NCBI GenBank assembly: GCA_903897855.1
Contig: CAIUDH010000041.1
Span: forward strand, 44,879-108,878
Reading direction: 5' to 3'
From: an uncultured Bacteroidota bacterium
GTDB taxonomy: Bacteria; Bacteroidota; Bacteroidia; UKL13-3
Length of the DNA stretch: 64,000 bases
This document shows, one piece after another, positions 17,240 through 63,984 of this stretch. Position 1 is the stretch's first letter. The number at the start of each line of letters is the position of its first letter. The position numbers and the translations under genes were made by a program. Below the pieces are notes generated by a model. The model did not search any database and was not told where the DNA came from. It worked only from the letters and a program-made list of their open reading frames with translations.

Positions 17240-17337
17240 GCTTTTTTTTCGATAAAATCAAATTTTGGCCAAAGAATTGTAGGGAGTCGACGATTTTGGC
17301 TTGCCCGACCGTCTAAAAAAGTGTTTTTGAGCTTAAC

Positions 17338-17853: not shown

Positions 17854-18043
17854 TATAGTTCAGGTTTTAAAATACAAAAATACACATTCTTTCGTACTCA
17901 GTAAAAGACCATTGCAATAACAATTTGTATTATTCAATTGACCCGACTGCCACTATCGATGGTGGCAGTCATAACTAATATTTCATTTACAAAAGGAGCT
18001 TTACGACCAGGGTCGCATCAGCTACGAAATCGTTCATCTAACA

Positions 18044-47188: not shown

Positions 47189-50100
47189 ATGAGCAATGCA
47201 ATAAAAAAAAATAAAAAAAGTCGTGAGGAAAAAATATTCACGAGAGTTACTAAAACGAGAGATTTTCCTATTGTGGGTATCGGTGCTTCTGCGGGAGGTT
47301 TGGAGGCATTAGAAAGTTTTTTTGGCGCCATGCCTAATGACCCTGGAATGGCTTTCGTAGTGATTCAGCATCTCGACCCCAATTATGTAGGGATGATGCC
47401 TGAGATTTTACAAAGAAGGACTAAAATGAAAGTTTTAGAGGCCACCGATGGCTTAGCCATAGAAACGAATCATGTGTATGTTATTCCTCCTAAGAAGACG
47501 ATGTCGATTCTGAATGCGGTTCTTTTTTTGTTTGAGCCCATCGAATCGCACGGCCTTCGTTTACCGATTGATTATTTTTTCAATTCATTGGCCAACGATA
47601 GGCTCGAAAATAGCATTGGCATTATTCTATCGGGCATGGGTAGCGATGGCTCTTTAGGCTCAAAAGCCATCAAAGCAAAAAACGGCATTCTCCTGGTGCA
47701 AGAGCCTGCTGATGCGAAATATGATAGCATGCCCCAAAGCGTGTTGAATCAATGTGTGGCCGACATTATAGCTCCAGCCATCGAATTGCCTGCAAAACTA
47801 ATTGCCTTTCTAAATCCGAGTGCCCTGGCCCCAGTACTCTCGACACAGAATATTGATAATTTAAGTTCCATCGACAAAATTATTATTTTGCTTCGTACCC
47901 ATAACAAGCACGATTTTTCAATGTATAAAAAGAACACCTTGTTCAGACGTATTGAAAGACGGATGAGTGTTCACCTGATTGAAGGAATAGATAATTATGT
48001 TCGATTTTTAACAGAGAATCCAACAGAGCTGGATATTCTTTTCAAAGAATTATTAATTGGAGTGACTAGTTTTTTTAGAGATCCCTTAGTTTGGGAAATG
48101 TTCATAAACACCATTCTCCCTGATTTATTTAAAATCCGCCCCAACGGACATGTTTTTCGAGCATGGATTCCAGCTTGTTCTACAGGTGAGGAAGCCTATT
48201 CATTGGCAATTGCTTTTAAAGAAGCATTAGAGAAAGAAAAAGACAGAAAGAATTTTAGCTTGCAGGTGTTTGGGACTGATATTGATAATGATGCCATTGC
48301 CAATGCCCGTAAAGCGGTTTTTAATTCCAATATTGCTTCGGATATTTCTCCAGAGCGTTTAAGCAATTTTTTCACCAAAACGTCAGGAGGTTTTCAAGTG
48401 AAGAGCAATATTCGGGAAATGGTGGTGTTTGCCCCTCAAAATGTTATACGCGACCCCCCATTCACCAGACTTGATATTGTCGCCTGCCGAAATATGCTTA
48501 TATATATGGAGCCGGTACTGCAGAAAAAAATCATGGCTTTGTTTCATTATAGTTTAAATGTTGATGGTATAATGCTATTAGGCAGTGCCGAGAGCAATAA
48601 CACCAATGATTTATATTTTAGTGTCATCGACTCAAAATTAAAATTCTACAAACGCTCCGAAACTTCTGCAATCGCTGAATTGGTTGATTTTCCCAGTGCT
48701 TACACCTATAAAAAAGCAGAATTGGTAGCAGAACTTAAAACTGAAAACAGTACTCCGAATATTCAATTGCTGGCTAATGAGTATATACAGCAAAACTATT
48801 CTCCTGCCAGTTTACTAATTAATGCCGATGGCGACATCCTCTTTATTTCTGGAAAAACAGGCAAATATTTAGAGCCGGCTGCAGGCAAAGCAAACTTGAA
48901 CATTTTTGCGATGGCTCGTGAGGGTTTAGGAACACCCCTTATAGGTGCCATCCGAAGAGCAAAGCAAAATTATGAACCGCAAATTTTGCATGGTGTGAAA
49001 GTGGGCCCACCAGACACTTCGAAATACGTTGATATCACTGTTCAACATATCGAAAAACCAGAAGCGATGAGAGGAAAACTCATGGTCGTTTTTAGCGAAT
49101 CTCATTTCTCGGTTAAATCGGAACGAAAACCAATAACCTCAAAAAACGCAACAGCTAATTTACGTGAGGAAGAATTAGAACACGAACTCTTGATGGCCAA
49201 TGAAGATCTTCAATGCGCGCGGGAAGAAATGCAGGCTACACAAGAAGAGTTAAAATCGACCAACGAGGAGTTGCAATCATCGAATGAGGAGATGCAGTCG
49301 ACCAACGAGGAACTAACGACCAGCAAAGAAGAAATGCAGAGTCTGAACGAAGAACTACAGACTATGAATACGGAGATGCAAAACAAATTAACCGAGTTCG
49401 TGCAGGCAAACAACGATATGAAAAACCTGCTGAACAGTACTGATATTGCCACTTTGTTTTTAGACAGAGACCTAAATATTCGACGCTATACTGATCAGAT
49501 AACGAAAATCATTAGACTTCGCCCTACCGATATAGGCAGGCCCTTTACCGACTTAATTTCAACACTGAGGTATCCGGAAATAGAAAAAGATGCAAGAAAG
49601 GTGTTACAAACGCTCATTTTTATAGAAACCTATATTGCCACCATTGACGAACGCTGGTTTGCCGTAAAAATCATGCCCTATCGTACCGTTGAAGACCGTA
49701 TTGATGGACTCGTTCTCACTTTTATTGACATTTCCAGTTCGAAAAAGATGGAAGGGAAATTATTGATTGCCAACAATGAACTATTGTTGCAGAATAAAGC
49801 AAAACTACAACGGGCCAATGAATTGGCAATTGCCAATAAAGAGCTTGCCTTTCAAAATAAGGAAAAACAAAAACGGGCCAATGAATTAATCATTGCCAAT
49901 AAAGAGCTTGCCTTTCAAAATAAGGAAAAACAAAAACGGGCCAACGAATTGGCAATGGCCAATAAAGAGCTTGCGGTACAAAACAAAGAAAAACAAAAAC
50001 GAGCCCTCGAATTGTCTGTTGCGTATAAAAAGCTTACGGTGCAAAACAATGAAAAGGCAGCACGTGAAAGCGCCTTGGTGATTGCTAATAAAGAACTTGC

Positions 50101-50305
50101 GTTACAAAACAAAGATAAACAAAAACGGGCCGACGAATTAATTATCGCCTATAAAGAACTTGCTTTACAGTATAAAGAAAAACAAAAACGAGCAGATGAA
50201 TTAATCATCGCCAACAAAAAGCTTTTAATTGATCAAAAAGCAAAGAAAAAAATCGAAGCCGAATTAGAAAAAACAAAAAATGCACTAAAGAAATTTAAAG
50301 TATAA
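47189..50305 (+). CDS. CheB methylesterase / CheR methyltransferase fusion protein with a PAS region and a C-terminal repetitive coiled coil
   Basis: N-terminal CheB-like VGIGASAGGLEALESFF...VIQHL. Central CheR-like FFRDPLVWEMF...RAWIPACSTGEEAYSLAIA. C-terminal 21-aa repeats ANKELAFQNKEKQKRANEL. Confidence 0.8.
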   Translation: MSNAIKKNKKSREEKIFTRVTKTRDFPIVGIGASAGGLEALESFFGAMPNDPGMAFVVIQHLDPNYVGMMPEILQRRTKMKVLEATDGLAIETNHVYVIPPKKTMSILNAVLFLFEPIESHGLRLPIDYFFNSLANDRLENSIGIILSGMGSDGSLGSKAIKAKNGILLVQEPADAKYDSMPQSVLNQCVADIIAPAIELPAKLIAFLNPSALAPVLSTQNIDNLSSIDKIIILLRTHNKHDFSMYKKNTLFRRIERRMSVHLIEGIDNYVRFLTENPTELDILFKELLIGVTSFFRDPLVWEMFINTILPDLFKIRPNGHVFRAWIPACSTGEEAYSLAIAFKEALEKEKDRKNFSLQVFGTDIDNDAIANARKAVFNSNIASDISPERLSNFFTKTSGGFQVKSNIREMVVFAPQNVIRDPPFTRLDIVACRNMLIYMEPVLQKKIMALFHYSLNVDGIMLLGSAESNNTNDLYFSVIDSKLKFYKRSETSAIAELVDFPSAYTYKKAELVAELKTENSTPNIQLLANEYIQQNYSPASLLINADGDILFISGKTGKYLEPAAGKANLNIFAMAREGLGTPLIGAIRRAKQNYEPQILHGVKVGPPDTSKYVDITVQHIEKPEAMRGKLMVVFSESHFSVKSERKPITSKNATANLREEELEHELLMANEDLQCAREEMQATQEELKSTNEELQSSNEEMQSTNEELTTSKEEMQSLNEELQTMNTEMQNKLTEFVQANNDMKNLLNSTDIATLFLDRDLNIRRYTDQITKIIRLRPTDIGRPFTDLISTLRYPEIEKDARKVLQTLIFIETYIATIDERWFAVKIMPYRTVEDRIDGLVLTFIDISSSKKMEGKLLIANNELLLQNKAKLQRANELAIANKELAFQNKEKQKRANELIIANKELAFQNKEKQKRANELAMANKELAVQNKEKQKRALELSVAYKKLTVQNNEKAARESALVIANKELALQNKDKQKRADELIIAYKELALQYKEKQKRADELIIANKKLLIDQKAKKKIEAELEKTKNALKKFKV
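49813..50220 (+). repeat. About 6.5 tandem copies of a 63-bp coding repeat within the CheB/CheR fusion gene
   Basis: GCCAATGAATTGGCAATTGCCAATAAAGAGCTTGCCTTTCAAAATAAGGAAAAACAAAAACGG is repeated near-identically and degenerates toward the 3' end. Confidence 0.7.
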
Positions 50306-52193: not shown

Positions 52194-52312
52194 TGTTTTT
52201 TCTTCCCTCCAATTTATGCGTGAAAGCATAGAATTTTCTTGCCTTATTTTTTTTACTTTGAAAGGTCAAAAAGGCTTTACTATATAACAAATATATAAAG
52301 AGTCTAAGGTCT

Positions 52313-52341
52313 TATATTTGCAAATATGACTACCTTTGCAA
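52313..52341 (+). promoter_or_regulatory. nadA promoter region: -7 box TATATTTG inside a 14-nt perfect palindrome, overlapped by a TTGCAAA-N10-TTTGCAA inverted repeat
   Basis: ATATTTGCAAATAT (52314-52327) is self-complementary. TTGCAAA (52318-52324) and TTTGCAA (52335-52341) are reverse complements. About 90 nt upstream of nadA. Confidence 0.35.
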
Positions 52342-52412: not shown

Positions 52413-53477
52413 TTGAACATGACACCCATAAAAACCAATACAGTAAAGAACTGGAAAAATTTATTCAGTGAAAAATTCATTCGAATGACTGGTGAAACAC
52501 AGCGTGAGCAATTGAGTTCAATACTACTTCAAGTGGAAGAAATACATGAATTGAAACTGAAGAAAAATGCCACCATACTTTCGCATTATTATATGCCCCC
52601 TGAATTGCAGATAGAGACGAAAGATGGAGGTGTGGCCGATCATACTGGCGACTCGTTGGCCTTAAGTGTTGCTGGCACACAAACGGAGGCAGAGCATATC
52701 GTGTTTTGTGGCGTCAAGTTTATGGCCGAAACGGCCCATATCCTCTCACAGGGTAAAAAAGTGTTTCTCCCCAGTTGGTTGGCAGGATGCACCTTAGCCG
52801 AAAGTATCACCGCGGAGGATGTGAAGATGCTCAGAGCAAAACATCCAGGAGTGCCGGTGATGGCCTATATCAACACCAACGCCGAAACAAAAGCAGAATG
52901 TGATATTATTTGTACTTCACGTAATGCTATTAAAATAGCAAATACATTCAGTGGGGAAGAATTGATTTTTGTGCCCGATAAATATATGGGGCAAAATTTA
53001 GTGAGTAAAGCAGGGGGTGAGACCAACAAAAAATTTATCCTTTGGAATGGTTCATGCGTGGTGCATGAGCAGTTTATGGGTAATATTAAAAGTATGACCA
53101 TGGCGGAGCCGGAAGCGGAAGTGCTCTTGCATTGGGAAGTACCCGGACAAACCGTTGATTCGGTACTTAACAGCACCAAAGGTATTGTGGGAAGCACCTC
53201 CGATATTATCAAATATGTGGAAGACAGCGCTGCTAAGAAATTTATTCTTGGCTCGGAATGCGATTTAGGGGCTACCCTAAAGGGTAAATTCCCATTGAAA
53301 CAATTTATCACACCCTGTATCTACTGCTCCTATATGAAAGCCATTACCATTGGCAATACACTCGAAACATTAAAAATGATTGGCACAGCGAGAGAAAAGG
53401 AACAACTCATTATAATGGATGAAGACCTTCGCACTAGAGCTTTTATTCCATTACAAAGAATGCTAGACTTAAGCTAA
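52413..53477 (+). CDS. nadA: Quinolinate synthase A
   Basis: NATILSHYYMPPELQ, FCGVKFMAETAHIL and the C-terminal Cys-containing region of NadA. The start may instead be Met25 at 52485. Confidence 0.9.
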   Translation: MNMTPIKTNTVKNWKNLFSEKFIRMTGETQREQLSSILLQVEEIHELKLKKNATILSHYYMPPELQIETKDGGVADHTGDSLALSVAGTQTEAEHIVFCGVKFMAETAHILSQGKKVFLPSWLAGCTLAESITAEDVKMLRAKHPGVPVMAYINTNAETKAECDIICTSRNAIKIANTFSGEELIFVPDKYMGQNLVSKAGGETNKKFILWNGSCVVHEQFMGNIKSMTMAEPEAEVLLHWEVPGQTVDSVLNSTKGIVGSTSDIIKYVEDSAAKKFILGSECDLGATLKGKFPLKQFITPCIYCSYMKAITIGNTLETLKMIGTAREKEQLIIMDEDLRTRAFIPLQRMLDLS

Positions 53478-53525: not shown

Positions 53526-55172
53526 ATGAGGATCATTGAGTCTGACATTTTAGTGATAGGTAGTGGTATTGCCGGATTGTTTTTTGCATCAAAATCGGCC
53601 GATAGTGGAACGATTAATATTATTACCAAAGCCGCCATTGATGATGGTAATACCCGGCTTGCACAAGGTGGCATTGCCTGTGTAAATAATGCTCATGATA
53701 ATTTCGAATCGCATATCAATGACACCCTCCTGGCAGGGGCTGGATTTTGTAATAGGGAAGCGGTTGAGTTGATGGTAAGCCTGGCACCAGCATTGATTGA
53801 GGAGCTTGTCAATATCGGAGTGAAATTTTCAAAGGAAAACAATATCCTGGATCTTGGCAAAGAAGGGGGGCATTCACACCATCGTATCGTTCACTCCACC
53901 GACATCACCGGATCGGTGATTGAACAAGCCTTAGTAAAAAATGTAAGCCAGTTCAAGTCCATTCATACCTTCGAATATTTTATCGCTATAAAATTAGTGG
54001 TCCATGATTCGTGTTGCTACGGCACCCTAGCCTTAGATACACAAACAGGCGAATCGGTTTTTTTTCGATCGAAAAGTACGGTACTTGCTACGGGGGGCGG
54101 CGGACAAGCCTACCTACAAACAACCAACCCTTTACTGGCTACAGGCGATGGCTATGCCTTGGCCTACGATGCTGGGGTGCCTATTTCAGATATGGAATTT
54201 GTACAATTCCATCCCACGATGTTACATCATGCACAAGCCCACGGATTTTTAATTAGTGAGGCACTACGGGGTGCAGGAGCCGAACTCGTACTTCCCGACG
54301 CAAGCACCTTCATGCAACACTATCACCCTCTCGGTTCATTAGCTCCCCGCGATATTGTATCGCGCGCGATGTATACCGAGATGAAGGTTTTAGGCCTGCC
54401 AAATCTCTTTCTTGATGCCAGAAGCATATCACCAAAAACCATTGAGACTCATTTCCCCAATATTAACACCACCTGCTTGGCACTGGGTATCGATATGCTT
54501 CACCACCTGATTCCAGTGGCGCCAGCAGCCCATTTCATCTGTGGTGGAGTCACAACAAACCTTGATGGCTGTACCGGTTTGAAACAGCTGTATGCAATTG
54601 GAGAAGTAGCTCGCACGGGTGTTCATGGGGCAAACAGGCTGGCTAGTAATTCCTTATTGGAAGGCTTGGTCTTTGCATTTCAAACTGCCAACCACGTGAA
54701 AGAGAATCTGCCTTATTACAAAAATTCCGTATTATTGCCTAATTTCCCTGTTCAAAAGCTGCCTAAAACTGCTCTTGAACAGAAGGAGATTGCCCATCTG
54801 AGGTTAGCAATACAAACCCTGATGTGGGAACATATCGGTATTGTTCGTTGCGAGTTAGGAATGAAGGAAGGGGAAACAGCCTTAAACCTTATTGGTTCCC
54901 GAATTCAAGTGCTGCTAAAGACAATTCAGCTTGATCGGGAGTTGATAGAGTTAAATAGTATTTATAAAACGGCTGAACTAATAATAAACGCAGCACTCAA
55001 GAGAACAGTAAGTTTGGGTTGTCATTATATTGAGTACCCGAACACTTATAAAAATAGCGGCCCTCCGCGAGATAAGAACATCCTAAAGGAGACAGTTAAA
55101 GTAAAGGAATTGACGCAACAAATCGTTGATTCAGAAGAAATTGGTAACGATCACGTGATCAAGATAAAATAA
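53526..55172 (+). CDS. nadB: L-aspartate oxidase
   Basis: FAD-binding DILVIGSGIAGL. RLAQGGIA. The succinate dehydrogenase/fumarate reductase flavoprotein-like core. Confidence 0.92.
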   Translation: MRIIESDILVIGSGIAGLFFASKSADSGTINIITKAAIDDGNTRLAQGGIACVNNAHDNFESHINDTLLAGAGFCNREAVELMVSLAPALIEELVNIGVKFSKENNILDLGKEGGHSHHRIVHSTDITGSVIEQALVKNVSQFKSIHTFEYFIAIKLVVHDSCCYGTLALDTQTGESVFFRSKSTVLATGGGGQAYLQTTNPLLATGDGYALAYDAGVPISDMEFVQFHPTMLHHAQAHGFLISEALRGAGAELVLPDASTFMQHYHPLGSLAPRDIVSRAMYTEMKVLGLPNLFLDARSISPKTIETHFPNINTTCLALGIDMLHHLIPVAPAAHFICGGVTTNLDGCTGLKQLYAIGEVARTGVHGANRLASNSLLEGLVFAFQTANHVKENLPYYKNSVLLPNFPVQKLPKTALEQKEIAHLRLAIQTLMWEHIGIVRCELGMKEGETALNLIGSRIQVLLKTIQLDRELIELNSIYKTAELIINAALKRTVSLGCHYIEYPNTYKNSGPPRDKNILKETVKVKELTQQIVDSEEIGNDHVIKIK

Positions 55173-55183
55173 CGCTATAAATC

Positions 55184-56983
55184 ATGGTTTTAAAATCAGA
55201 ACATATCTTTCATATACCGGTAATGGGACTTGCATATACGGTTGATTCACCAGTGAAAGTAGCTCGTTTTGGGATCTCATCAGTAATCTCCATCATAGAA
55301 GATCGTTTAGTGGAGATGATGCGTAAGCACTACTATCCCACCATCAACGAAACCTATACTCCTATATCGCACCACGAACCCGATTACAGAGCAAAAAGAA
55401 TCACCGATTATCTAAACCTGGTGAACACGATCGTACAGCAACAAATGCAAAAATTAAAAACAGAAGCATTTGAACGTGGTACCGAAATAGTGAAGTATTT
55501 TGAGATGTTACCGGTGGAGAGCAGATTGAAGAAACTGTATCTGGAGATGATGCATTGTGCTGATGAGGTAGAGAAGATAGGCCTGCAAGTATACCTACGC
55601 ACACAACTTGTTGCTGGAGGTATCGATGTAAATATACTCACGAAAACAGATCGGGAAAATCGTGATGACGATGGAAATATCATTCCGAACGGATCGGACG
55701 CCGTGGCCGCCTTGCGTGGTTATATTAAAAGCGATTTAACCAACTCCGCTATTGTGTTTTCGGCTGGCATGAACCCTCGATTATATAGCTATCTGGAAAA
55801 TTTCGATGCCTTCGATCCAGATGAAAATTTCCTCTTGAAGAAACGAGTGATTGTGAAAGTAAGCGACTACCGTTCGGCCCTAATTCAAGGCAAGTTTTTA
55901 GCTAAAAAAGGAATTTGGGTAAGCGAGTTTCGGATCGAATCGGGACTCAACTGTGGAGGCCATGCTTTTGCCACCGATGGGTTTCTTTTAGGTCCTATTA
56001 TGGAGGAGTTTAAAAACAATAGAGAGGTGTTGGCCAACACCATATTTGATATTTACAAATTAGCCATTCACAAAAAAACCGGACTAGATTTTAATCATCA
56101 TCCAGGAATTGAAATTTCGGTGCAAGGAGGTATTGGAACTTACGAAGAAGATCGTTTTTTACATGAACACTATAACGTTACAAGCACCGGTTGGGGTACC
56201 CCTTTTTTATTGGTGCCCGAAGCAACTACGGTAGATGATCATACCTTAAAACTTTTAAGCGATGCCACAGAGGAAGACATATTGCTTAGCAATTACTCAC
56301 CACTCGGCGTTCGTTTTCATTATTTGAAAGGAACCACCGCAGCCATTGAAAAACAAGAGAGAATAGATGAAGGTAAACCTGGTAGCCCCTGCACTGAAAA
56401 GCATCTTGGCTTTAATACCGAATTTACTGAAGAACCTATCTGCACTGCTTCTCATAAATATCAGAAATTAAAACTAGAGCAATTACAAACCCTTGGCCTG
56501 TCTGAGAAAGATTATCAATCGCAAAAAGCAGATGTATTAGCCAAAGAATGCTTATGTATTGGTCTTAGCAATGCGGCTGCCTTATATTATAATGAGCCCT
56601 TTTTGAAAAGTTTGAAATCGGTGAATGTCTGCCCTGGTCCCAATATCGTAAACTTTTCAGAAGTAGTTTCATTACAAACCATGGTGGATCATATTTATGG
56701 CAGAACCGATATTATGACAAATCCAAAGCGCCCTCATATGTTTAATGCAGAAATAACACTGTATATTAACTATATCAAGGAGCTGCTGTTAAAGGAGGGT
56801 GGAATAAACGACCCTAAAAGAAAAAGCTATTACCAATCGTTTATCTCCAATTTGTTGGAAGCCATCGTTTACTATAAAAACTTACCCGCACATGCGATAG
56901 CAGCCCGATCTGTTTTTATGGAAGAGTTAGAGCGTGCTGAAAAAGAATTGGCCGCCGTGAGAATAGCCTATGCTTTAGATTAA
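55184..56983 (+). CDS. Conserved hypothetical protein (599 aa), possibly an FMN-binding TIM-barrel-like enzyme, co-oriented 11 nt after nadB
   Basis: No confident family assignment. The motifs ESGLNCGGHAF and VQGGIGT are reminiscent of nitronate monooxygenase or glutamate-synthase-type FMN barrels. Inference only. Confidence 0.5.
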   Translation: MVLKSEHIFHIPVMGLAYTVDSPVKVARFGISSVISIIEDRLVEMMRKHYYPTINETYTPISHHEPDYRAKRITDYLNLVNTIVQQQMQKLKTEAFERGTEIVKYFEMLPVESRLKKLYLEMMHCADEVEKIGLQVYLRTQLVAGGIDVNILTKTDRENRDDDGNIIPNGSDAVAALRGYIKSDLTNSAIVFSAGMNPRLYSYLENFDAFDPDENFLLKKRVIVKVSDYRSALIQGKFLAKKGIWVSEFRIESGLNCGGHAFATDGFLLGPIMEEFKNNREVLANTIFDIYKLAIHKKTGLDFNHHPGIEISVQGGIGTYEEDRFLHEHYNVTSTGWGTPFLLVPEATTVDDHTLKLLSDATEEDILLSNYSPLGVRFHYLKGTTAAIEKQERIDEGKPGSPCTEKHLGFNTEFTEEPICTASHKYQKLKLEQLQTLGLSEKDYQSQKADVLAKECLCIGLSNAAALYYNEPFLKSLKSVNVCPGPNIVNFSEVVSLQTMVDHIYGRTDIMTNPKRPHMFNAEITLYINYIKELLLKEGGINDPKRKSYYQSFISNLLEAIVYYKNLPAHAIAARSVFMEELERAEKELAAVRIAYALD

Positions 56984-57004: not shown

Positions 57005-57448
57005 TTAAATTGCACTTATTTTGTCATCCATCCATTCGGCATATGAATCTTTTGTTTCATATAATTTGAGTTGAATGAGTTTTACCTCCTCTGGAAAAGA
57101 TTCCTTCAATGTTTGCTTGATATAAAATAACAAATTTTCAGCGGTGGGCTCGGCATCCCAAATTATAAGATTTTCTTGCGTGGAGAAAGAAGGATGAGCG
57201 GCTACAAAAGGGCTTGACAAAATCATCCTATGATCGAACTTCTCCGTCACTGCTTCTTTTACAATTTTCTTTATTTCTTTAAAGTCGATGATAAATCCGG
57301 GTGCAGGAATATATTCGGTGTGGTTTTCAGAAGCACAAACGGTTACATGAAGTTCATAAGAATGTCCGTGAATATTTTTGCATGCTCCCTTATATCCATG
57401 GATGGCATGGGCCATTTCAAAATGAAAAATTTTAGTCAGTCGAATCAT
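57005..57448 (-). CDS. 6-pyruvoyl-tetrahydropterin synthase / QueD-family protein (second paralog)
   Basis: MIRLTKIFHFEMAHAIHGYKGACKNIHGHSYELHVTVC has the PTPS Zn-binding His residues and a catalytic Cys context. The supplied ORF starts at 57481. Confidence 0.8.
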   Translation of the reverse strand: MIRLTKIFHFEMAHAIHGYKGACKNIHGHSYELHVTVCASENHTEYIPAPGFIIDFKEIKKIVKEAVTEKFDHRMILSSPFVAAHPSFSTQENLIIWDAEPTAENLLFYIKQTLKESFPEEVKLIQLKLYETKDSYAEWMDDKISAI

Positions 57449-57506
57449 ATATATAGCGTTAAAACGAAGGTGTGAAAGCAATTTGTTTGCTTCTTACAAG
57501 TACAAA

Positions 57507-58871
57507 TTACGTAGTTTTTTTTGACTTGCTTTTAGTATAATAGCAAAGCAATTGATTTTTTATCAACGGATAAATGATAATTAGAATACCGATCGTGAGA
57601 ATCAATCCGAAAATGAAAAAAGAAATGAAAAAAGGCTTCAACTCCACCATCATCGAGCCAAACAAGATTCGTGGCTCACTCATCTGCCATTTCGATTGCA
57701 TCACTCCTACGGCAATTAAACTAATCCAAAAGGCAAATAGAGAGGCGTTAATCACGAAATAAGTTCGATTAAAGAGCTTAGTATTAGGTTCGAAAGTGAG
57801 ACAAGTTTCATGAAGTATATCAAAGGCGATGGCCAATAACAAAAAAGTGTTGATGCCAATGGTTGCTCCCATGGTGTGGGCTACGGTAATAAAAGTGCCA
57901 TGGGTATAAATATTTAAAGCCGGCACCGACATGCCAATAGCGAGCAAGAGCGTTAAAAAAACCCAGACATCAGCGGCAAGTATAAACTTATAGGCCGCAT
58001 GATGAAAATGTCGTCGGGCAGTACTTACCGAAGCTCTCCATTCATAAATTATTCTTCCTAAAATTAATAACTCGGTCATGCTTACCACATAACTTACATA
58101 TTGAATAAAATGATAGGTGGGTAAAGTATAAATATGGTGCCCCCAGTTAAACATCAGATTGAACAACCCAATAAAATATAAAAGGAAACCCATACGAGAG
58201 GTGCTATAGGTTTTATCGCCACTGATTTTCTCCATGAGAAAAAAACTACTCCCATAAATTAACATATTCCAAGCCCCTACCATCGACCCATAAGATTTCC
58301 ATTGAACCGTCATATCATTGACGATATTATTTCTGAAATAAGGAAAAATCCATAAGTACGACTCGAGAAAAGTAAACAGAAAAAACACGGCTCCGGTGAG
58401 CCACATCCATACATAAACAGGCTGATTCCTGATACTGCCAATCGTATTTATAACATTGTAAAGAAACAATAACCACCCAAATAAAATTGGCAAAGCCAAT
58501 AAAGGCGGAAACTCCCAGTATTCTCGCCCACCAAACATACCAAAACAATAGGATGTTAAGATGGCCAGGATCGTGAACAAAAACACGAGCAACTGAACCT
58601 TCGTAAGCCATGGAGTATGAAGCTTTTTCTGTGTATACTGCTGCAAATAGAACAAGACACTGCCCATGGCTCCTAAAATAATCCAGAACACCACAGCTGA
58701 AACATGTAACGGTCGAATTTTCTCAAAAGAGAAATATTTCTTTAAAAAACCAGGAACCAAATATTGAAACGCTCCGGTTAAACCATAAATCATACCGAAG
58801 CCCAATAATATGAGTCCAGCAACGATGAAAAGTTTATTGGTGTTGAGCTGTTTATTGTTCGATGGTTCCAT
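57507..58871 (-). CDS. norB: Haem-copper oxidase family large subunit, most consistent with cNOR NorB-like nitric oxide reductase
   Basis: 12-TM protein of 454 aa with conserved His clusters (WGHHIY, HFHHAAY, VAHTMG). Preceded and overlapped by a NorC-like cytochrome c. The order cyt c then large subunit fits norCB rather than ccoNO. Confidence 0.55.
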   Translation of the reverse strand: MEPSNNKQLNTNKLFIVAGLILLGFGMIYGLTGAFQYLVPGFLKKYFSFEKIRPLHVSAVVFWIILGAMGSVLFYLQQYTQKKLHTPWLTKVQLLVFLFTILAILTSYCFGMFGGREYWEFPPLLALPILFGWLLFLYNVINTIGSIRNQPVYVWMWLTGAVFFLFTFLESYLWIFPYFRNNIVNDMTVQWKSYGSMVGAWNMLIYGSSFFLMEKISGDKTYSTSRMGFLLYFIGLFNLMFNWGHHIYTLPTYHFIQYVSYVVSMTELLILGRIIYEWRASVSTARRHFHHAAYKFILAADVWVFLTLLLAIGMSVPALNIYTHGTFITVAHTMGATIGINTFLLLAIAFDILHETCLTFEPNTKLFNRTYFVINASLFAFWISLIAVGVMQSKWQMSEPRILFGSMMVELKPFFISFFIFGLILTIGILIIIYPLIKNQLLCYYTKSKSKKTT

Positions 58872-59262
58872 TGGAGTTTACTTTAAACGTTCTAAGATCT
58901 GATTTCCCTGAAGCATCGATACTTTTAAGATAGGATAGTAAAGCATCCATTTCCGACTCAGGCATATTAAAAACAGGCATCACTGGGGTAAAGACACTGG
59001 CATCTTTAAGAAACAATTTTATGAATGCCGTATCTCGTGCTGTATATTCATTGGTAAGGTCGGGGCCCAGAAAACCACCCAATCCATAAACCTGATGACA
59101 AGCGCCACAATTATATTTTTGCCATATTAATTTGCCGGCCGAACTTTGTTCATCCATAGCTGAGGCTTTTCTTGGCAAAGAATTATAAATATAACAGGTA
59201 TAGCATAAAAAAGCAGAAAGCAAGAATGTGATAATTATAAATTTATGCTTGTCGTAAGCCAT
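58852..59262 (-). CDS. norC: Membrane-anchored mono-haem cytochrome c (NorC-like)
   Basis: N-terminal TM anchor. WQKYNCGACHQVYGLGGFLGPDL has a CxxCH haem site and resembles the NorC consensus around it. Overlaps norB by 20 nt. Confidence 0.55.
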   Translation of the reverse strand: MAYDKHKFIIITFLLSAFLCYTCYIYNSLPRKASAMDEQSSAGKLIWQKYNCGACHQVYGLGGFLGPDLTNEYTARDTAFIKLFLKDASVFTPVMPVFNMPESEMDALLSYLKSIDASGKSDLRTFKVNSNGTIEQ

Positions 59263-59386
59263 AGTGGTGAGAACAAATAAAAGAATGCGAAGATATCCAT
59301 ATCATTTATCTTTGCAAAAAATAAATCGAACTATTACCCGATTTTTCTTCACAAGCAAGTGCTTCACAGCGCCAATACACCTCCCG

Positions 59387-59857
59387 ATGAATAAACCAAC
59401 GCAAGCTAAAACCCCGGCCGACTCGGAAACCATTAAAACTGAAATCGTGTGTCCGAATGATACCAACCCCATGGGTTACCTGCAAGGGGGCCGTCTGGTT
59501 GAATGGATGGATATTGCAGCTGCCGTTTGCGCTCAAACACATGCCGGTAAAATTTCTGTGACAGCCTCCATTAATCAAGTCGACTTTAATGAGGCCGCAA
59601 AAATAGGCGATATCGTAACCATCGATGCCAAAATAACGAGAGCGTTTAACACTTCTATGGAAATTTTTGTTCAGTCGTATGCTCGGAAGGTCCTGCTTGG
59701 AAAAAAATATCTCATCAGTGAGGCCTTTTTCACGTTCGTGGCACTCGATGAGAACGGAAAATCTTCTCCTGTGACAGAATTGACACCAGTATCAGCAGAG
59801 GAAAAACGACAATATGAATTGGCACTTAACAGAAAGCAACAGCGGCATATAAAGTAG
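59387..59857 (+). CDS. Acyl-CoA thioesterase (hot-dog fold, YciA-like)
   Basis: IVCPNDTNPMGYLQGGRLVEWMDIAAAVCA and ASINQVDFNEAAKIGDIVTIDAKI are typical of acyl-CoA thioester hydrolases. The supplied ORF starts at 59264. Confidence 0.75.
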   Translation: MNKPTQAKTPADSETIKTEIVCPNDTNPMGYLQGGRLVEWMDIAAAVCAQTHAGKISVTASINQVDFNEAAKIGDIVTIDAKITRAFNTSMEIFVQSYARKVLLGKKYLISEAFFTFVALDENGKSSPVTELTPVSAEEKRQYELALNRKQQRHIK

Positions 59858-59925: not shown

Positions 59926-61317
<1,392 letters not shown>

Positions 61318-61330
61318 TTAAAATTATTTT

Positions 61331-62704
61331 TTAATTAATAGGAGCTAATTTAGCCGTAAAATGGCGCAAAATAGGCGCTTCTTCGATTATTTTTAGTCCT
61401 GATACTTTAGCCCGATTATTGAAAGCTTCAATCACCACCTCCGCCACATAATCAATATGGCTCTGTGTGTAAACTCTTCTTGGAATAGCCATACGAACCA
61501 ATTCCATCTGCGCCGGAATTAATTTTCCATCAGTATCATATTTGCCAAACATCAAAGAACCAATTTCTACACTACGTATCCCTCCTACTAAATACAAGGC
61601 ACCTACCAAGGCTTGGCCTGGATATTGATCAACGGGGATATGTGGGAAAAAAGCTTTGGCATCAATATACACGGCATGGCCTCCTGCAGGCTGCATCACC
61701 GGTACACCCGCCTCAATTAATTTGTTCGTGAGATATTCGATACTGCGGATTCGGTAGTTTAAATAGTTTTCATCCATCACCTCATTGAGTCCAATGGCAA
61801 TCGCTTCCAAATCTCTGCCAGCCAATCCTCCATACGTAGGAAACCCTTCCATCACCACCAACAGATTCCTACAACTTAAAGCCAACGATTCATTACGCAT
61901 CGCCAGAAAACCTCCGATGTTCGCAAAGGCATCTTTCTTGGCACTCATGGTACAGCCATCAGCATAAGAAAATAACTCTTTCGCAATTTCAGGCACCGAT
62001 TTATTGGCATATCCTGCTTCACGTATTTTGATGAAATAACTGTTCTCGGCAAACCGACACGCATCAATAAATAATGGAATCTTATGCTCCTTGCAAACGG
62101 CACTCACCTCTCTAATATTTTGCATGCTTACCGGCTGTCCGCCACCCGAATTGTTGGTCACCGTAATTACACAAAGTGGGATGTTGGATGCTCCTTTTTC
62201 GGCAATGAAATTTTTCAATAAGTTCACATCCATATTGCCTTTGAAAGGCGCCGGAATCGATGGATGTTTGCCTTCTTCACATAATAAATCAACCCCTTCG
62301 GCACCCGAGAATTCGATATTCGCTCGAGTGGTATCGAACAAGGTATTACTCACAAAATATTTGCCTTTGCCTCCCAGAATGCTGAATAAAATTTTCTCGG
62401 CCGCTCTACCTTGGTGTGTAGGTATTACCAATGGCATACCCGTGATGTTTTGAATGGTTTCTTCGAAACGAAAGAAACTGGGACTCCCGGCATACGACTC
62501 ATCGCCCTGCATAATACCAGCCCATTGGTTACTGCTCATGGCACTCGTGCCACTGTCGGTAAGTAAGTCGATGATGACGTCTTTGGAGTGAATAAGAAAA
62601 GGATTGTAAAATGCCTTTTCTAAGATGGCCACCCGCTCTTCGGGGGTATTAAAGTAGATAGGCTCTACCGATTTTATTTTAAATGGTTCAATAATAGTTT
62701 GCAT
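61331..62704 (-). CDS. Beta-eliminating lyase (tryptophanase/tyrosine phenol-lyase family), paralog 2
   Basis: [54 protein letters not shown]. Tandem with paralog 1, with a 22-nt spacer. The supplied ORF starts at 62752. Confidence 0.85.
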   Translation of the reverse strand: MQTIIEPFKIKSVEPIYFNTPEERVAILEKAFYNPFLIHSKDVIIDLLTDSGTSAMSSNQWAGIMQGDESYAGSPSFFRFEETIQNITGMPLVIPTHQGRAAEKILFSILGGKGKYFVSNTLFDTTRANIEFSGAEGVDLLCEEGKHPSIPAPFKGNMDVNLLKNFIAEKGASNIPLCVITVTNNSGGGQPVSMQNIREVSAVCKEHKIPLFIDACRFAENSYFIKIREAGYANKSVPEIAKELFSYADGCTMSAKKDAFANIGGFLAMRNESLALSCRNLLVVMEGFPTYGGLAGRDLEAIAIGLNEVMDENYLNYRIRSIEYLTNKLIEAGVPVMQPAGGHAVYIDAKAFFPHIPVDQYPGQALVGALYLVGGIRSVEIGSLMFGKYDTDGKLIPAQMELVRMAIPRRVYTQSHIDYVAEVVIEAFNNRAKVSGLKIIEEAPILRHFTAKLAPIN

Positions 62705-63018
62705 GAAAAATTTATGATTAAAATTATGATTTTGAAAAAAATAGAAGGTCATGGTGCTTGGCAGCCCCTAATTAAGATGGTCTTTTGATGATATTTTTCC
62801 AAAGAATCATGGCGCGAAGTTGCCTTATTTGAAGCAAACAAAATATGACTATAGTCATGCCATCAAAATCAAGCATCCTTTCGGCCAACTTAATATATGA
62901 AGAAGCACCCCAATATTTAACATCTTTGAAATAAATAGTTTTAATAAAAGTATTTGAATGCTTTTATTAAAACTATTTATTTATCTTTGTCCCGTTAAAA
63001 AAAAATAACCTATTTATC

Positions 63019-63984
63019 ATGCAAACCATTTCAGAAAATATTTTAAACGTAACCTTACTCGAACCAAAATTAAAACACCCCACTATTTTTATTCGCTTCG
63101 ACGAATTAGCGGAAGGTGAGATTCTTACCATTCATAACGACCACGACCCGAAGCCGCTGTATTATCAAATGCTGGGGGAAAGAGGAAATATATTTATATG
63201 GGAATACCTGGAGGAAGGGCCCGAATGGTGGAAAGTAAAAATAACGAAACGCATCAGCGGAGAAAATGAGGAAACACTCGGACAAATTGCAGCAAAAGAT
63301 TTACGCAAAGCGCATGTGTTTAAAAAGTATGGACTTGATTTTTGTTGTGGGGGTAAAAAAACCGTGAAAGAAGCATGCGCCGAAAAAGGGCTTGATGTAA
63401 CCCTGATTGAGAAAGAATTACAGCAAACAGAAAAAATATCCTCGTCGCGTCCACTTCCTTATGGCGAATGGAGCCTGGACTTCCTAGCCGACTATATCGT
63501 AAACACACACCATACCTATGTTGCAAAAAACTTACCCGACCTCAGAGCGTATGCTTTCAAGGTGAGTAAGGTTCACGGGCACCGTCATGCCGAATTGTTT
63601 CAAATACATCAGCTGGTGGAAGATATAAATACCGAATTAATATCGCACATGGCCAAAGAAGAACAGATCTTATTCCCTTATATAAAAGAGTTGGTTACCG
63701 CCACTAAAAACTCACAGCCTTACCACTCGCAGCATCTGGGTAGTGTGCAAGGCCCTATTAATATGATGGAAATGGAACATGAGATGGTGGGAAGCGCCAT
63801 GGCGAAAATTCGCGATCTAACCAATAATTATCTCCTTCCCGAAGAAGCCTGCGCAAGCTATAGTTTGTTATATCGTTTATTAGCCGAATTCGAAGAAGAT
63901 ATCCATCTGCATATCCATCTCGAGAATAATATTCTATTCCCCAAAGCCCTGGAATTAGAAAAAAACTTAACTATTCAATCATAG
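63019..63984 (+). CDS. DUF2249 domain fused to an ScdA/YtfE (RIC) hemerythrin-like di-iron iron-sulfur repair protein
   Basis: N-terminal LDVTLLEP...ILTIHNDHDPKPLYY...WKVKITK (DUF2249-like). Then KYGLDFCCGGKKTVKEACAEKGLD (ScdA_N). Then His/Glu-rich hemerythrin-like repeats (HHTYVAKNLPDL, HGHRHAELF, MEHEMVG, HLHIHLENNILFP). Confidence 0.65.
   Translation: MQTISENILNVTLLEPKLKHPTIFIRFDELAEGEILTIHNDHDPKPLYYQMLGERGNIFIWEYLEEGPEWWKVKITKRISGENEETLGQIAAKDLRKAHVFKKYGLDFCCGGKKTVKEACAEKGLDVTLIEKELQQTEKISSSRPLPYGEWSLDFLADYIVNTHHTYVAKNLPDLRAYAFKVSKVHGHRHAELFQIHQLVEDINTELISHMAKEEQILFPYIKELVTATKNSQPYHSQHLGSVQGPINMMEMEHEMVGSAMAKIRDLTNNYLLPEEACASYSLLYRLLAEFEEDIHLHIHLENNILFPKALELEKNLTIQS

What the first reader, a model, noticed from the sequence alone, without database searches (positions are those of the whole stretch)
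55184..56983. Unrecognised 599-aa protein apparently co-transcribed with nadA-nadB
It starts 11 nt after nadB on the same strand. nadA-nadB lacks the third de novo NAD gene nadC in this window. The protein has no family I can assign. The motifs ESGLNCGGHAF and VQGGIGT faintly resemble FMN-binding TIM-barrel enzymes (nitronate monooxygenase or glutamate-synthase type). Operon linkage suggests a role connected to quinolinate, iminoaspartate or NAD metabolism, or a redox partner for NadB.
Basis: inference. Interest (0 to 1): 0.5.

Follow-up and report, generated by a model that had tools for sequence, protein, structure and literature searches.

The report
Uncharacterised FabX-like flavin/iron-sulfur enzyme
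The 599-residue protein after nadA-nadB is real and belongs to a very large, unnamed family of flavin plus probable iron-sulfur enzymes related to the fatty-acid enzymes FabX and FabK; in other genomes it sits with nitric-oxide and low-oxygen response genes, not with NAD genes.

Summary
The ORF at 55184..56983 (+) is real and starts 11 nt after nadB. It matches no Pfam, NCBIfam or PDB sequence. It nevertheless has more than 8000 clusters of relatives, all labelled hypothetical, in Bacteroidota, Ignavibacteria and Fibrobacter.

nadA or nadB lies directly beside the gene in only 3 of 83 loci. Recurrent neighbours are instead NO reductases, RIC/ScdA, Rrf2 and Crp/Fnr regulators, nos genes, HemN, and a U32-ferredoxin-YhbP operon. 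Two palindromic operators recur upstream.

Fusions to a diflavin NADPH reductase and to a PlsC acyltransferase, plus lipid-gene neighbours in several lineages, point to a ferredoxin-fed redox enzyme acting on a fatty-acyl substrate. The substrate is inferred, not shown.

The NAD-pathway idea is not supported.

The parts
55184..56983 (+). Protein X, 599 aa: a divergent NMO/FabK/FabX-superfamily FMN TIM barrel with a helical insertion, a Cys-rich (probable Fe-S) region and a C-terminal helical bundle
55208..55240 (+). First barrel strand and loop FHIPVMGLAYT (res 9-19). By eye it corresponds to the FabK 'PIIQAGM' FMN-phosphate loop
   Evidence: M14, G15 and T19 are invariant across both family branches. 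Strand E9-11 in the model. The equivalence to FabK is by eye only and was not recovered by hhalign.
55301..55603 (+). Helical insertion of about 100 residues (res 40-140) between barrel elements, absent from FabK and FabX
   Evidence: Helices H40-50, H68-93, H101-107, H114-123 and H128-140 in the model. hhalign puts this stretch opposite the unrelated N-terminal part of FabK at negligible confidence; only about 325 of X's 599 residues align structurally with FabX.
55757..55777 (+). FSAGMNP (res 192-198), equivalent to the FabK TSAGNP motif
   Evidence: S193, A194, G195 and N197 invariant. hhalign alignment.
55937..55963 (+). Active-site motif ESGLNCGGH (res 252-260). H260 is aligned with the catalytic His of FabK (its FabX counterpart is H182). 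C257 is an invariant extra Cys
   Evidence: E252, S253, G254, N256, C257, G258, G259 and H260 are invariant in 74 sequences from two branches. Aligned with FabK EGFEAGGH. Role of the His in FabX and FabK from PMC8626469.
56123..56206 (+). FMN-binding strand-loop motifs QGGIGT (314-319) and GWGTPF (336-341)
   Evidence: hhalign against FabK, both single sequence and profile. This is the region where relatives hit Pfam NMO PF03060.
56381..56641 (+). Cys-rich region (res 400-486) with invariant C403, C420, C456, C458 and C483 (CPGPN): a probable Fe-S cluster site
   Evidence: The Cys residues are invariant across Bacteroidota and Fibrobacter branches. This is the lowest-confidence part of both AF2 models, as expected for an unliganded metal site. 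325 of FabX's 366 residues align, so part of its Fe-S subdomain is covered. Cluster binding itself is inferred.
56672..56968 (+). C-terminal helical bundle (res 497-595)
   Evidence: Helices H497-504, H519-538, H544-565 and H575-595, pLDDT 81-97. No counterpart found in PDB hits.
52413..53477 (+). nadA (quinolinate synthase), first gene of the apparent nadA-nadB-X unit
   Evidence: Pfam NadA E 1e-87.
53526..55172 (+). nadB (L-aspartate oxidase); its stop codon lies 11 nt before X
   Evidence: TIGR00551 504.8 bits against a cut-off of 452.75.
52295..52316 (+). Weak operator-like palindrome ATAAAGAGTCTAAGGTCTTATA upstream of nadA, overlapping a TAtaTTTG box
   Evidence: PSSM score 9.6. It ranks 7th in the window but falls below the 5th percentile of training sites. 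Inconclusive. Reading the TAnnTTTG box as a Bacteroidetes -7 promoter element rests on my own knowledge.
57005..57481 (-). PTPS/QueD-like gene, convergent with X; a recurrent neighbour (19 of 83 loci)
   Evidence: Pfam PTPS E 5.5e-29. Cluster counts.
57507..59262 (-). norC-like monohaem cytochrome c (58852..59262) plus a NorB-like haem-copper oxidase subunit (57507..58871): a candidate NO reductase
   Evidence: Pfam COX1 E 4.5e-29. Only weak ccoN hits in NCBIfam. The pair recurs in 14-18 loci. NO-reductase activity is inferred from subunit sizes and context.
59264..59857 (+). 4HBT-family thioesterase, divergent from norCB; found in the same operon as X in L008, L009 and L013
   Evidence: Pfam 4HBT E 6.9e-15. 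Gene orders.
59926..62752 (-). Tandem tyrosine phenol-lyase (59926..61308) and tryptophanase-like (61331..62752) genes
   Evidence: TIGR02618 757.8 bits against a cut-off of 720.7; PRK13238. The cluster recurs in 12 loci.
62844..62859 (+). Crp/Fnr-type palindrome TATGACTATAGTCATG between the tryptophanase-like gene and RIC
   Evidence: One mismatch to TATGAC-N4-GTCATA; the only such site in the window. The same motif lies upstream of X in 16 of 82 loci.
62945..62966 (+). Palindrome TAAAAGTATTTGAATGCTTTTA, ending 52 nt before the RIC start codon (candidate Rrf2-type operator)
   Evidence: Highest PSSM score in the window. The motif lies upstream of RIC in 7 of 14 loci, p = 1e-10.
63019..63984 (+). 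RIC/ScdA-type di-iron protein (DUF2249 + ScdA_N + hemerythrin)
   Evidence: Pfam E 3e-22, 1e-21 and 5e-18.

Best explanation
X is an FMN-dependent oxidoreductase of the nitronate-monooxygenase/FabK/FabX superfamily. It forms a distinct, unnamed subfamily of about 600 aa.

Proposed mechanism:
- The barrel holds FMN.
- His260, with the neighbouring invariant Cys257, acts as acid/base on a C-H or C=C next to an activating group.
- A cluster bound by the five invariant C-terminal cysteines passes single electrons between FMN and an outside partner. That partner is the small 4Fe-4S ferredoxin encoded in the operon of many relatives, or a fused NADPH diflavin reductase in one lineage.
- The electron path resembles FabX or 2,4-dienoyl-CoA reductase: NAD(P)H or ferredoxin, then Fe-S, then FMN, then substrate.

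The most likely substrate is a fatty-acyl thioester or lipid acyl chain. The reaction would be either a FabX-like alpha,beta-dehydrogenation/isomerisation or an enoyl reduction.

In Bacteroidota the gene belongs to gene islands and operator-defined regulons that respond to nitric oxide and/or lack of oxygen. These regulons also hold enzymes whose usual counterparts need O2 or are, as far as is known, damaged by NO: HemN, class II RNR, a U32 family protein, and in some genomes nadA-nadB. In this window X has been placed behind nadA-nadB and is probably co-transcribed with them. That is a shared-regulation link, not a pathway link.

Status of each step:
- Shown: fold, motif conservation, gene neighbourhoods, operator enrichment, fusions.
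- Inferred: FMN and Fe-S binding, direction of electron flow, the acyl substrate, the inducing signal.
For: Fold:
- Foldseek's top 20 hits are all FabX, trans-AT/PUFA enoyl reductases or FabK.

Sequence bridge:
- hhalign of the X profile against a FabK profile aligns VN, SAGxNP, E...GGH, GGI and GxGT(P/R)F.
- Fibrobacter-branch relatives reach the Pfam NMO gathering score: 28.8-33.0 against 28.

Conservation: the FMN motifs, H260, C257 and C403/C420/C456/C458/C483 are invariant across branches that share only 34-36% identity.

Electron partners:
- P0126 is X fused to Flavodoxin_1, FAD_binding_1 and NAD_binding_1, seen in three independent sequences.
- A 73-aa Fer4_15 ferredoxin ORF lies in the U32-fdx-YhbP-X operons.

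Regulon:
- 42 of 83 loci carry NOR/qNOR, RIC, Rrf2, Crp/Fnr, nos, HemN or similar genes within 10 kb.
- TATGAC-N4-GTCATA lies upstream of X in 16 of 82 loci against 40 of 1017 for other genes (p = 8e-7). Five exact sites lie at -49 to -66.
- TAAAAGAy-N6-rTCTTTTA lies upstream of X in 15 of 82 loci (p = 2e-4), upstream of norC, and in three of six qNOR loci (nominal p = 0.005). It is present in all five 'X>Rrf2>' loci.
- The HcpR1 box TTGAC-N4-GTCAA is a published NO-regulon motif (PMC1274295).

Lipid theme:
- P0151 is X fused to a PlsC-type acyltransferase.
- An acyl-ACP thioesterase lies next to X throughout Fibrobacter.
- A 4HBT thioesterase sits in the operon, and FabH, FabK and serine palmitoyltransferase lie nearby in Bacteroidota.
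- An LPG_synthase_C gene abuts X in L092.

Precedent: the FabX homologue NGO1024 of N. gonorrhoeae is induced 8-10 fold anaerobically (PMC3032703). It is reported as essential for anaerobic unsaturated fatty acid synthesis (cited in PMC11300592).
Against: - No cofactor, substrate or expression data exist for any member.
- The Cys spacing (C-x16-C-x35-C-x-C-x24-C) is unlike FabX's C-x3-C-x3-C-x11-C. The cluster type, and even cluster binding, are therefore unproven.
- A fused NADPH diflavin reductase implies reduction, whereas FabX is a dehydrogenase. The two readings of the acyl reaction conflict.
- Lipid-gene neighbours are individually infrequent (4-6 loci each). The Fibrobacter synteny counts as one evolutionary observation.
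- About 30 of 83 loci show neither operator nor marker gene.
- Neither operator is convincingly present upstream of nadA or X in the window itself. The window also lacks Rrf2, YhbP, U32 and Crp/Fnr genes.
- The operators could respond to iron/Fe-S status or to oxygen rather than to NO.
Confidence: 0.55

Rival explanations
1. X is a reductase that detoxifies NO-derived or other nitrogen-oxide compounds (nitronates, nitro or nitroso compounds, hydroxylamine). It would be fed by ferredoxin or NADPH, by analogy with nitronate monooxygenase or with the Hcp/Hcr pair.
For: X is co-located and shares operators with NOR, qNOR, RIC and nos genes. The NMO fold family includes nitronate oxidisers. A reductase fusion exists.
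Against: The closest structural relatives are acyl-ACP enzymes rather than NMOs. Strictly anaerobic, non-denitrifying Fibrobacter keep the gene in a lipid and cell-envelope context. The PlsC fusion and the lipid neighbours are left unexplained.
Confidence: 0.18
2. X serves NAD biosynthesis. It would be a redox partner of NadB, a handler of iminoaspartate or quinolinate, or a stand-in for the absent nadC.
For: An 11-nt gap after nadB on the same strand. The same nadA-nadB-X order occurs in L055, which is only 58% identical, and nadA lies within 10 kb in L003, L031 and L056. That is more often than chance would place a single-copy gene.
Against: 78 of 83 loci have no nadA or nadB within 10 kb. 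In L056 nadA-nadB follow norC-norB instead. This suggests nadAB joins the same island independently. The fold is unrelated to NadC-type phosphoribosyltransferases. Fibrobacter contexts have no NAD genes.
Confidence: 0.04
3. X is simply another housekeeping enoyl-ACP reductase, a long FabK variant.
For: FabK-type enzymes are among the best structural matches. The catalytic His and FMN motifs are conserved.
Against: A canonical 312-aa FabK (E 9e-120 to P. gingivalis FabK 4iql) lies 4.3 kb from X in L072. At least that genome therefore has both. X is twice as long, carries invariant Cys residues and is under stress-type operators. Identity to FabK is about 12-15%.
Confidence: 0.08
4. X is a quinone or other respiratory electron-transfer flavoprotein, like PA1024 NADH:quinone reductase. 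It would feed or drain anaerobic respiratory chains.
Against: X has no membrane anchor and no conserved link to one particular respiratory enzyme. The lipid fusions and neighbours are not explained.
Confidence: 0.08

Closest known systems
FabX (HP0773) of Helicobacter pylori and its homologue NGO1024 of Neisseria gonorrhoeae: FMN + [4Fe-4S] decanoyl-ACP dehydrogenase/isomerase for unsaturated fatty acid synthesis
   Different: Structure-based identity is only 14-17%. X is 599 aa against about 360. X has a 100-residue helical insertion and a 100-residue C-terminal helical bundle. The Cys pattern is completely different. An extra invariant Cys lies beside the catalytic His. X is found in the Bacteroidota/Ignavibacteria/Fibrobacter group. 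One lineage fuses it to an NADPH diflavin reductase, which suggests reduction rather than dehydrogenation.
FabK (enoyl-ACP reductase II) and the trans-acting enoyl reductases PfaD, DfnA and MlnA, plus the fungal FAS ER domain (Pfam NMO PF03060, COG2070)
   Different: X does not reach the Pfam threshold. No recognisable FabK NAD(P)H motif was found. It has five invariant Cys. It co-exists with a canonical FabK.
Nitronate monooxygenase / PA1024 NADH:quinone reductase
   Different: Those enzymes are about 320-370 aa, lack Fe-S and need O2 or quinone. X carries a Cys-rich domain and is linked to anoxia/NO genes.
2,4-dienoyl-CoA reductase FadH, and the trimethylamine dehydrogenase and dihydropyrimidine dehydrogenase type of FMN + [4Fe-4S] enzymes
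   Same: The proposed working principle is the same. An FMN TIM barrel is wired through an Fe-S cluster to an NAD(P)H/FAD module, which is fused in P0126. This comparison rests on established knowledge of those enzymes.

Membership tests
NMO/FabK/FabX superfamily (Pfam PF03060, COG2070) | (beta/alpha)8 FMN-binding TIM barrel of the NMO type | tested here: met
NMO/FabK/FabX superfamily (Pfam PF03060, COG2070) | FMN-binding sequence motifs and the catalytic His in the (E)xxGGH motif | tested here: met
   hhalign X profile against FabK profile: E 2.4e-4, probability 44%, 267 columns. ESGLNCGGH aligns with EGFEAGGH, QGGIGT with AGGIAT, and FSAGMNP with TSAGNP. All are invariant in 74 sequences.
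NMO/FabK/FabX superfamily (Pfam PF03060, COG2070) | Score above the Pfam NMO gathering threshold (28 bits) | tested here: not met
   X has no hit at E<=1. Only 1 of 50 diverse members gives a weak hit. Fibrobacter-branch relatives pass marginally, at 28.8-33.0 bits. Membership is therefore at superfamily level, through structure and transitive homology.
FabX (UFA dehydrogenase/isomerase) | [4Fe-4S] bound by the C300-x3-C304-x3-C308-x11-C320 motif in the C-terminal subdomain (PMC8626469) | tested here: not met
   X has C403, C420, C456, C458 and C483 with different spacing. The region is structurally in the same place, since 325 of 366 FabX residues align.
FabX (UFA dehydrogenase/isomerase) | Sequence identity with HP0773 in the range of accepted homologues (36-50% or more; PMC8626469, PMC11300592) | tested here: not met
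   14-17% identity in structural alignments. No PDB sequence hit to FabX, even with a profile at E<=10.
FabX (UFA dehydrogenase/isomerase) | Dehydrogenation and isomerisation of decanoyl-ACP; ACP-docking residues | not testable with these tools
   Needs enzyme assays or a residue-level superposition.
FabK enoyl-ACP reductase II | About 310-330 aa single-domain enzyme that is the cell's enoyl-ACP reductase | tested here: not met
   X is 599 aa with extra domains. A canonical FabK lies 4.3 kb away in L072.
De novo NAD pathway operon (nadA-nadB-nadC and accessories) | Conserved genomic linkage with nadA/nadB across genomes | tested here: not met
   Directly adjacent in 3 of 83 loci and within 10 kb in 5 of 83.
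NO/anoxia-responsive regulon of Bacteroidota (Crp/Fnr-type and Rrf2-type regulators) | Regulator operator upstream of the gene, shared with known NO-response genes (RIC, NOR) | tested here: met
   Family-wide: motif A in 16 of 82 loci (p = 8e-7) and motif C in 15 of 82 (p = 2e-4). Both are shared with RIC, norC-like and qNOR genes. 30 of 83 operons carry A or C. Which regulator binds, and the signal it senses, were not tested.
NO/anoxia-responsive regulon of Bacteroidota (Crp/Fnr-type and Rrf2-type regulators) | Operator upstream of this window's copy (upstream of nadA or of X) | tested here: inconclusive
   Only a weak motif-C-like site at 52295-52316 (PSSM 9.6, below the training range). Good sites exist only in front of RIC at 62844 and 62945.

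The most novel reading that the evidence does not exclude
X may define an oxygen-independent, ferredoxin- or NADPH-coupled enzyme that remodels fatty-acyl chains in Bacteroidota, Ignavibacteria and Fibrobacter. It might introduce or shift a double bond. It would be switched on by NO or anoxia, when O2-dependent di-iron desaturases cannot work. That would be a further route to unsaturated or modified lipids beside FabA/FabB, FabM/FabN and FabX. It would also make X a core, so far unnoticed, member of the denitrification and NO stress response of a major environmental phylum.
Probability: 0.2. Interest if true: 0.8.

Novelty: new variant of a known kind. Interest (0 to 1): 0.55.

Why it matters
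- **Scale.** The family is very large: at least 8000 clusters at 90% identity and 1251 at 50%. It is strongly conserved, with 65% identity between Saprospiraceae, Chitinophagaceae and Ignavibacteria. Yet it has no Pfam or NCBIfam model and no studied member.
- **Ecological setting.** It sits in the NO-reductase, RIC and nos neighbourhoods of soil, freshwater and marine Bacteroidota. These organisms matter for N2O turnover.
- **Testable handle.** Assigning it to the FabX/FabK fold, with a probable Fe-S cluster and defined electron partners, gives a concrete starting point for experiments.
- **If the acyl-chain hypothesis holds.** It would explain how members of this group that lack FabA adjust membrane lipids without oxygen.
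- **If it does not hold.** X is still an unexplored flavo-iron-sulfur enzyme of the NO/anoxia response.
- **A side result.** In some Bacteroidota nadA-nadB themselves appear to be recruited to this island.

Tried and rejected
- Direct family searches found nothing usable. Pfam, NCBIfam and PDB phmmer with X gave no hits. A PDB profile search with A1 gave one spurious RNA-polymerase alpha hit at E 0.002. Pfam on 50 diverse members gave only one weak NMO hit.
- The afdb50 fold library was not available, so no comparison with annotated AlphaFold entries was made.
- hhalign against a single FabK sequence aligned only the GGI...GxGT region. A FabK profile was needed to reach the His motif. Even then the probability is only 44%, so the sequence evidence supports the structural result but could not stand alone.
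- The look-up of encoding contigs failed for the Haliscomenobacter hydrossis protein P0047, which was not on record.
- I looked for the family's operators in front of nadA or X in the window. There is only a weak site, so I do not claim that this copy is regulated like the others.
- The nadC-substitute and NadB-partner ideas were rejected on linkage and fold.
- The 'housekeeping FabK' idea was rejected because a canonical FabK co-exists.
- The TetR-X fusion P0129 was not followed up and could be a gene-calling merger.
- The Isabella & Clark 2011 Mol Microbiol paper on NGO1024 is not held. It is cited only through PMC11300592.
I could not measure Cys-Cys or Cys-FMN distances, or superpose the FabX ACP site.
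Full report
**1. The observation**

The ORF 55184..56983 (+) encodes 599 aa from an ATG. It begins 11 nt after the stop codon of nadB (53526..55172; TIGR00551 504.8 bits, above cut-off). nadB in turn follows nadA (52413..53477; Pfam NadA E 1e-87) on the same strand. No terminator-like hairpin lies between nadB and the ORF. Downstream, a PTPS/QueD-like gene converges on it at 57005..57481 (-).

The protein has no Pfam or NCBIfam hit at E<=1 and no PDB sequence hit. The gene is clearly real:
- An identical protein is deposited as a 'hypothetical protein' of a Bacteroidetes MAG.
- The word-indexed search saturated at 8000 clusters. Its 120 best hits are all 583-646 aa, 64-100% identical and unnamed.
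- An exhaustive profile search of 1.84 billion representatives found 1251 clusters at 50% identity with E<=1e-3, and 330 with E<=1e-30.

**2. What kind of protein it is**

A first AlphaFold model, built from 45 close homologues, reached pLDDT 78. A second, built from 74 sequences of two deep branches, reached pLDDT 87.3 and pTM 0.89.

All three structure searches agree on the best match, H. pylori FabX:

| Search | Result for FabX |
|---|---|
| Foldseek | E 5.8e-10, target TM 0.65-0.67 |

The next matches are:

IMPDH/GMPR, the next family, scores about 15.

At sequence level the link is faint but consistent.
- An X profile against a FabK profile gives E 2.4e-4 over 267 columns.
- It aligns VN(150), FSAGMNP(192-198) with TSAGNP, ESGLNCGGH(252-260) with EGFEAGGH, QGGIGT(314-319) with AGGIAT, and GWGTPF(336-341) with QIGSRF.
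- His260 thus aligns with the catalytic His of FabK. FabX's H182 is the same conserved histidine, and both enzymes need it (PMC8626469).

A second large branch of the family lives in Fibrobacter. It is 34-36% identical to X. Some of its members reach the Pfam NMO gathering score, at 28.8-33.0 bits against 28.

Across both branches the following are invariant:
- the FMN motifs
- H260
- C257, next to the active-site His
- five cysteines after the barrel: C403, C420, C456, C458 and C483 (the last in CPGPN)

The Cys-bearing region is the least confident part of both models, as unliganded metal sites usually are. FabX carries a [4Fe-4S] cluster in the corresponding post-barrel subdomain, but on a C-x3-C-x3-C-x11-C motif that X lacks.

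X also has two elements with no counterpart in FabX or FabK: a helical insertion of about 100 residues (res 40-140) and a C-terminal helical bundle (res 497-595).

Conclusion: X is a distinct, unnamed subfamily of the NMO/FabK/FabX superfamily. It almost certainly binds FMN and probably binds an Fe-S cluster.

**3. Is it tied to nadA-nadB?**

I fetched 80 genomic loci from GTDB species representatives, plus two further contexts. I clustered all neighbouring ORFs and counted them.

- nadA-nadB-X occurs only in the window and in L055 (Marinoscillum, 58% identity).
- nadA is divergently adjacent in L003.
- nadA lies within 6 kb in L031 and L056.
- In L056 the order is norC-norB-nadA-nadB.

Five of 83 is still more than chance would give for a single-copy gene. 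I read this as nadAB being recruited now and then to the same island as X. That is inference. It fits two pieces of general knowledge: NadA is an Fe-S enzyme, and the NadB/NadA route can run without O2 (with fumarate as acceptor), unlike the kynurenine route used by many Bacteroidota.

**4. What it is tied to**

Recurrent neighbours, counted out of 83 loci (identifications):

| Neighbour | Loci |
|---|---|
| PTPS-like | 19 |
| Rrf2-family regulator (five times directly after X on the same strand, gaps 5-131 nt) | 19 |
| NorB-like oxidase with its monohaem cytochrome c | 14-18 |
| RIC/ScdA | 13 |
| YhbP-family PNPOx-like protein (ten times directly upstream on the same strand) | 13 |
| Histidine kinases | 13 |
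| Tyrosine phenol-lyase / tryptophanase | 12 |
| Crp/Fnr regulators | 11 |
| nosF/Y/D/L | 8-11 |
| Hemerythrin | 7 |
| qNOR (Pfam NorB_cytochrome_c-like E 7e-74) | 6 |
| U32 peptidase-family protein | 6 |
| DGC-domain protein | 6 |

HemN, a class II RNR-like protein and HemA also occur.

A 73-aa 4Fe-4S ferredoxin ORF lies between U32 and YhbP, giving U32-fdx-YhbP-X operons. In all, 42 of 83 loci carry at least one NO, denitrification or anaerobic marker gene within 10 kb.

The window itself has PTPS-like, norCB-like, 4HBT thioesterase, tyrosine phenol-lyase, tryptophanase-like and RIC genes downstream of X. It has no Rrf2, YhbP, U32, DGC, Crp/Fnr, nos, qNOR or HemN homologue anywhere in its 64 kb.

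**5. Shared operators**

A palindrome-enrichment scan and follow-up scans found three motifs.

- **Motif A, TATGAC-N4-GTCATA.**
  - With two or fewer mismatches it lies within 300 nt upstream of X in 16 of 82 loci, against 40 of 1017 for other genes (Fisher p = 8e-7). Five exact copies lie at -49 to -66.
  - It also precedes RIC (5 of 14) and an unnamed 414-aa membrane protein (3 of 6).
  - Its geometry (xTGAx-N4-xTCAx) is that of Crp/Fnr-family boxes. It is close to the HcpR1 box TTGAC-N4-GTCAA predicted for NO-responsive regulons (PMC1274295).
- **Motif C, TAAAAGAy-N6-rTCTTTTA.**
  - It precedes X in 15 of 82 loci (p = 2e-4) and the norC-like gene in 6 of 14.
  - It also precedes three of six qNOR genes (nominal p = 0.005).
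  - It further turns up upstream of members of the class II RNR-like and serine palmitoyltransferase clusters in a few loci each, too few to test.
  - It is present in all five 'X>Rrf2>' loci. That makes the Rrf2 protein its likely binder, but this is inferred.
- **Motif B, TAAAAGTA-N6-TACTTTTA.** This related form is specific to RIC (7 of 14, p = 1e-10).

Counting inferred operon heads, 30 of 83 X operons carry A or C. 53 of 83 loci have an operator or a marker gene.

In the window, A (62844-62859) and B (62945-62966) both lie in front of RIC. Upstream of nadA there is only a weak C-like site at 52295-52316. Regulation of this particular copy therefore remains open.

**6. Clues to mechanism and substrate**

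Two fusions are informative.
- P0126 (1167 aa, three independent sequences) is X followed by Flavodoxin_1, FAD_binding_1 and NAD_binding_1. That is a CPR/CysJ-type NADPH diflavin reductase. It lies directly after arrA-arrB and a TorD-like chaperone.
- P0151 (981 aa) is X followed by a PlsC-type acyltransferase.

Together with the operon ferredoxin, the first fusion argues that X receives single electrons through its Cys-bound centre. The logic is that of FadH or DPD-type FMN/Fe-S enzymes.

Lipid links recur in several lineages:
- The best structural relatives all act on acyl-ACP.
- Throughout Fibrobacter, X is flanked by an acyl-ACP thioesterase.
- In L092, X abuts an LPG_synthase_C gene.
- In Bacteroidota a 4HBT thioesterase shares its operon. 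FabH, FabK and serine palmitoyltransferase lie nearby.

There is also a published parallel. The gonococcal FabX homologue NGO1024 was first noticed as an 'Npd-like' gene induced 8-10 fold anaerobically (PMC3032703). It is reported to be essential for anaerobic unsaturated fatty acid synthesis, with an unknown electron acceptor (as cited in PMC11300592).

I therefore favour a fatty-acyl substrate, at roughly 35-40%. I cannot choose between two reactions:
- A FabX-like dehydrogenation/isomerisation fits the fold and the precedent.
- A reduction fits the NADPH-reductase fusion.

A role in detoxifying nitrogen-oxide-derived compounds is the main rival.

**7. Comparison with the known, and novelty**

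X works like, and is distantly related to, FabX and FabK. It fails the defining tests for membership of either: Cys motif, identity, size, and co-existence with a canonical FabK. It does not reach the Pfam NMO threshold. It is best described as a new variant, a separate subfamily with its own architecture, of a known superfamily.

I found no paper on it. My searches were for NsrR/Bacteroidetes regulons, for FabX, and for nitronate monooxygenase with NO.

**8. Verdict**

- The fold guess is right.
- The NAD interpretation is not supported.

The finding is of moderate to good interest. X belongs to a very widespread, strongly conserved, unstudied flavo-(Fe-S) enzyme family. It is embedded in the NO/anoxia response of Bacteroidota, and there is now a testable hypothesis about anaerobic lipid remodelling.

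Noticed in passing
window 62844-62859 and 62945-62966: Two different palindromic operators lie in the 266-nt divergent region between the tryptophanase-like gene and RIC. One is the Crp/Fnr type TATGACTATAGTCATG. The other is TAAAAGTATTTGAATGCTTTTA. The second is found almost only in front of RIC genes (7 of 14 loci, p = 1e-10).
   Followed up: yes
window 57507-59262 (-): A 136-aa monohaem cytochrome c plus a 454-aa haem-copper oxidase subunit have the sizes and gene order of norC-norB. They give only weak ccoN/COX1 hits, so this is a divergent, probably NO-reducing, oxidase family. It is regularly followed by a PTPS/QueD-like gene and an Rrf2 regulator in related genomes. Why a PTPS homologue belongs there is unexplained.
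   Followed up: partly
window 59926-62752 (-): Tandem tyrosine phenol-lyase (above the TIGR02618 cut-off) and tryptophanase-like genes, 46% identical to each other. They recur next to X in 12 loci and share the divergent operator region with RIC. They may be an oxygen-independent way to use Tyr and Trp; that is speculation.
   Followed up: partly
L056 (Aequorivita nionensis) about 14040-18300; L031: nadA-nadB follow norC-norB on the same strand in L056, and nadA lies beside norCB in L031. In some Bacteroidota the NadA/NadB route seems to be part of the NO/anoxia island.
   Followed up: partly
L013 2651-2872; likewise in L008, L015, L022, L027: A 73-aa single-cluster 4Fe-4S ferredoxin ORF (Fer4_15 E 5e-8) lies between the U32 gene and the YhbP gene. 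It fell below my 90-aa ORF cut-off and looked like intergenic DNA.
   Followed up: yes
L025 8691-9911, L026 1335-2555, L047 4574-5905, L080 3877-5121: A 414-aa polytopic membrane protein family has no Pfam or NCBIfam hit. It is preceded by near-perfect TATGAC-N4-GTCATA sites and lies directly upstream of X in L025 and L026. It is another unnamed member of the same regulon.
   Followed up: partly
L083 3042-6545 (P0126); L084 7107-10052 (P0151); P0129: Natural fusions of X exist. One is to a CPR/CysJ-like NADPH diflavin reductase, located next to arrA-arrB. One is to a PlsC-type acyltransferase. One is to an N-terminal TetR domain; that one was not checked and may be a merged gene call.
   Followed up: partly
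window 47189-50305 (+): A 1038-aa signalling protein whose C-terminal third is made of about eight tandem copies of a motif like ANKELAFQNKEKQKRANELI. By eye the N-terminus looks like CheB/CheR-type modules. It was not analysed.
   Followed up: no
window 4239-4658: A second PTPS/QueD-like paralogue, 29% identical to the one beside X. It may be the housekeeping QueD.
   Followed up: no
L016, L024, L037 (record titles): These contigs carry Bacteroidota-type X at 57-63% identity. They are titled as MAGs of Bordetella parapertussis, Asaia bogorensis and Rhizobium sp. They are probably mislabelled or mis-binned.
   Followed up: no
L086-L088, L090, L091 (Fibrobacter): In Fibrobacter, X is preceded by an MBL-fold protein resembling the ComEC C-terminal domain, with a 14-nt gap in L090. 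In some genomes it is followed by two small proteins without any family hit. Their relation to X is unknown.
   Followed up: no
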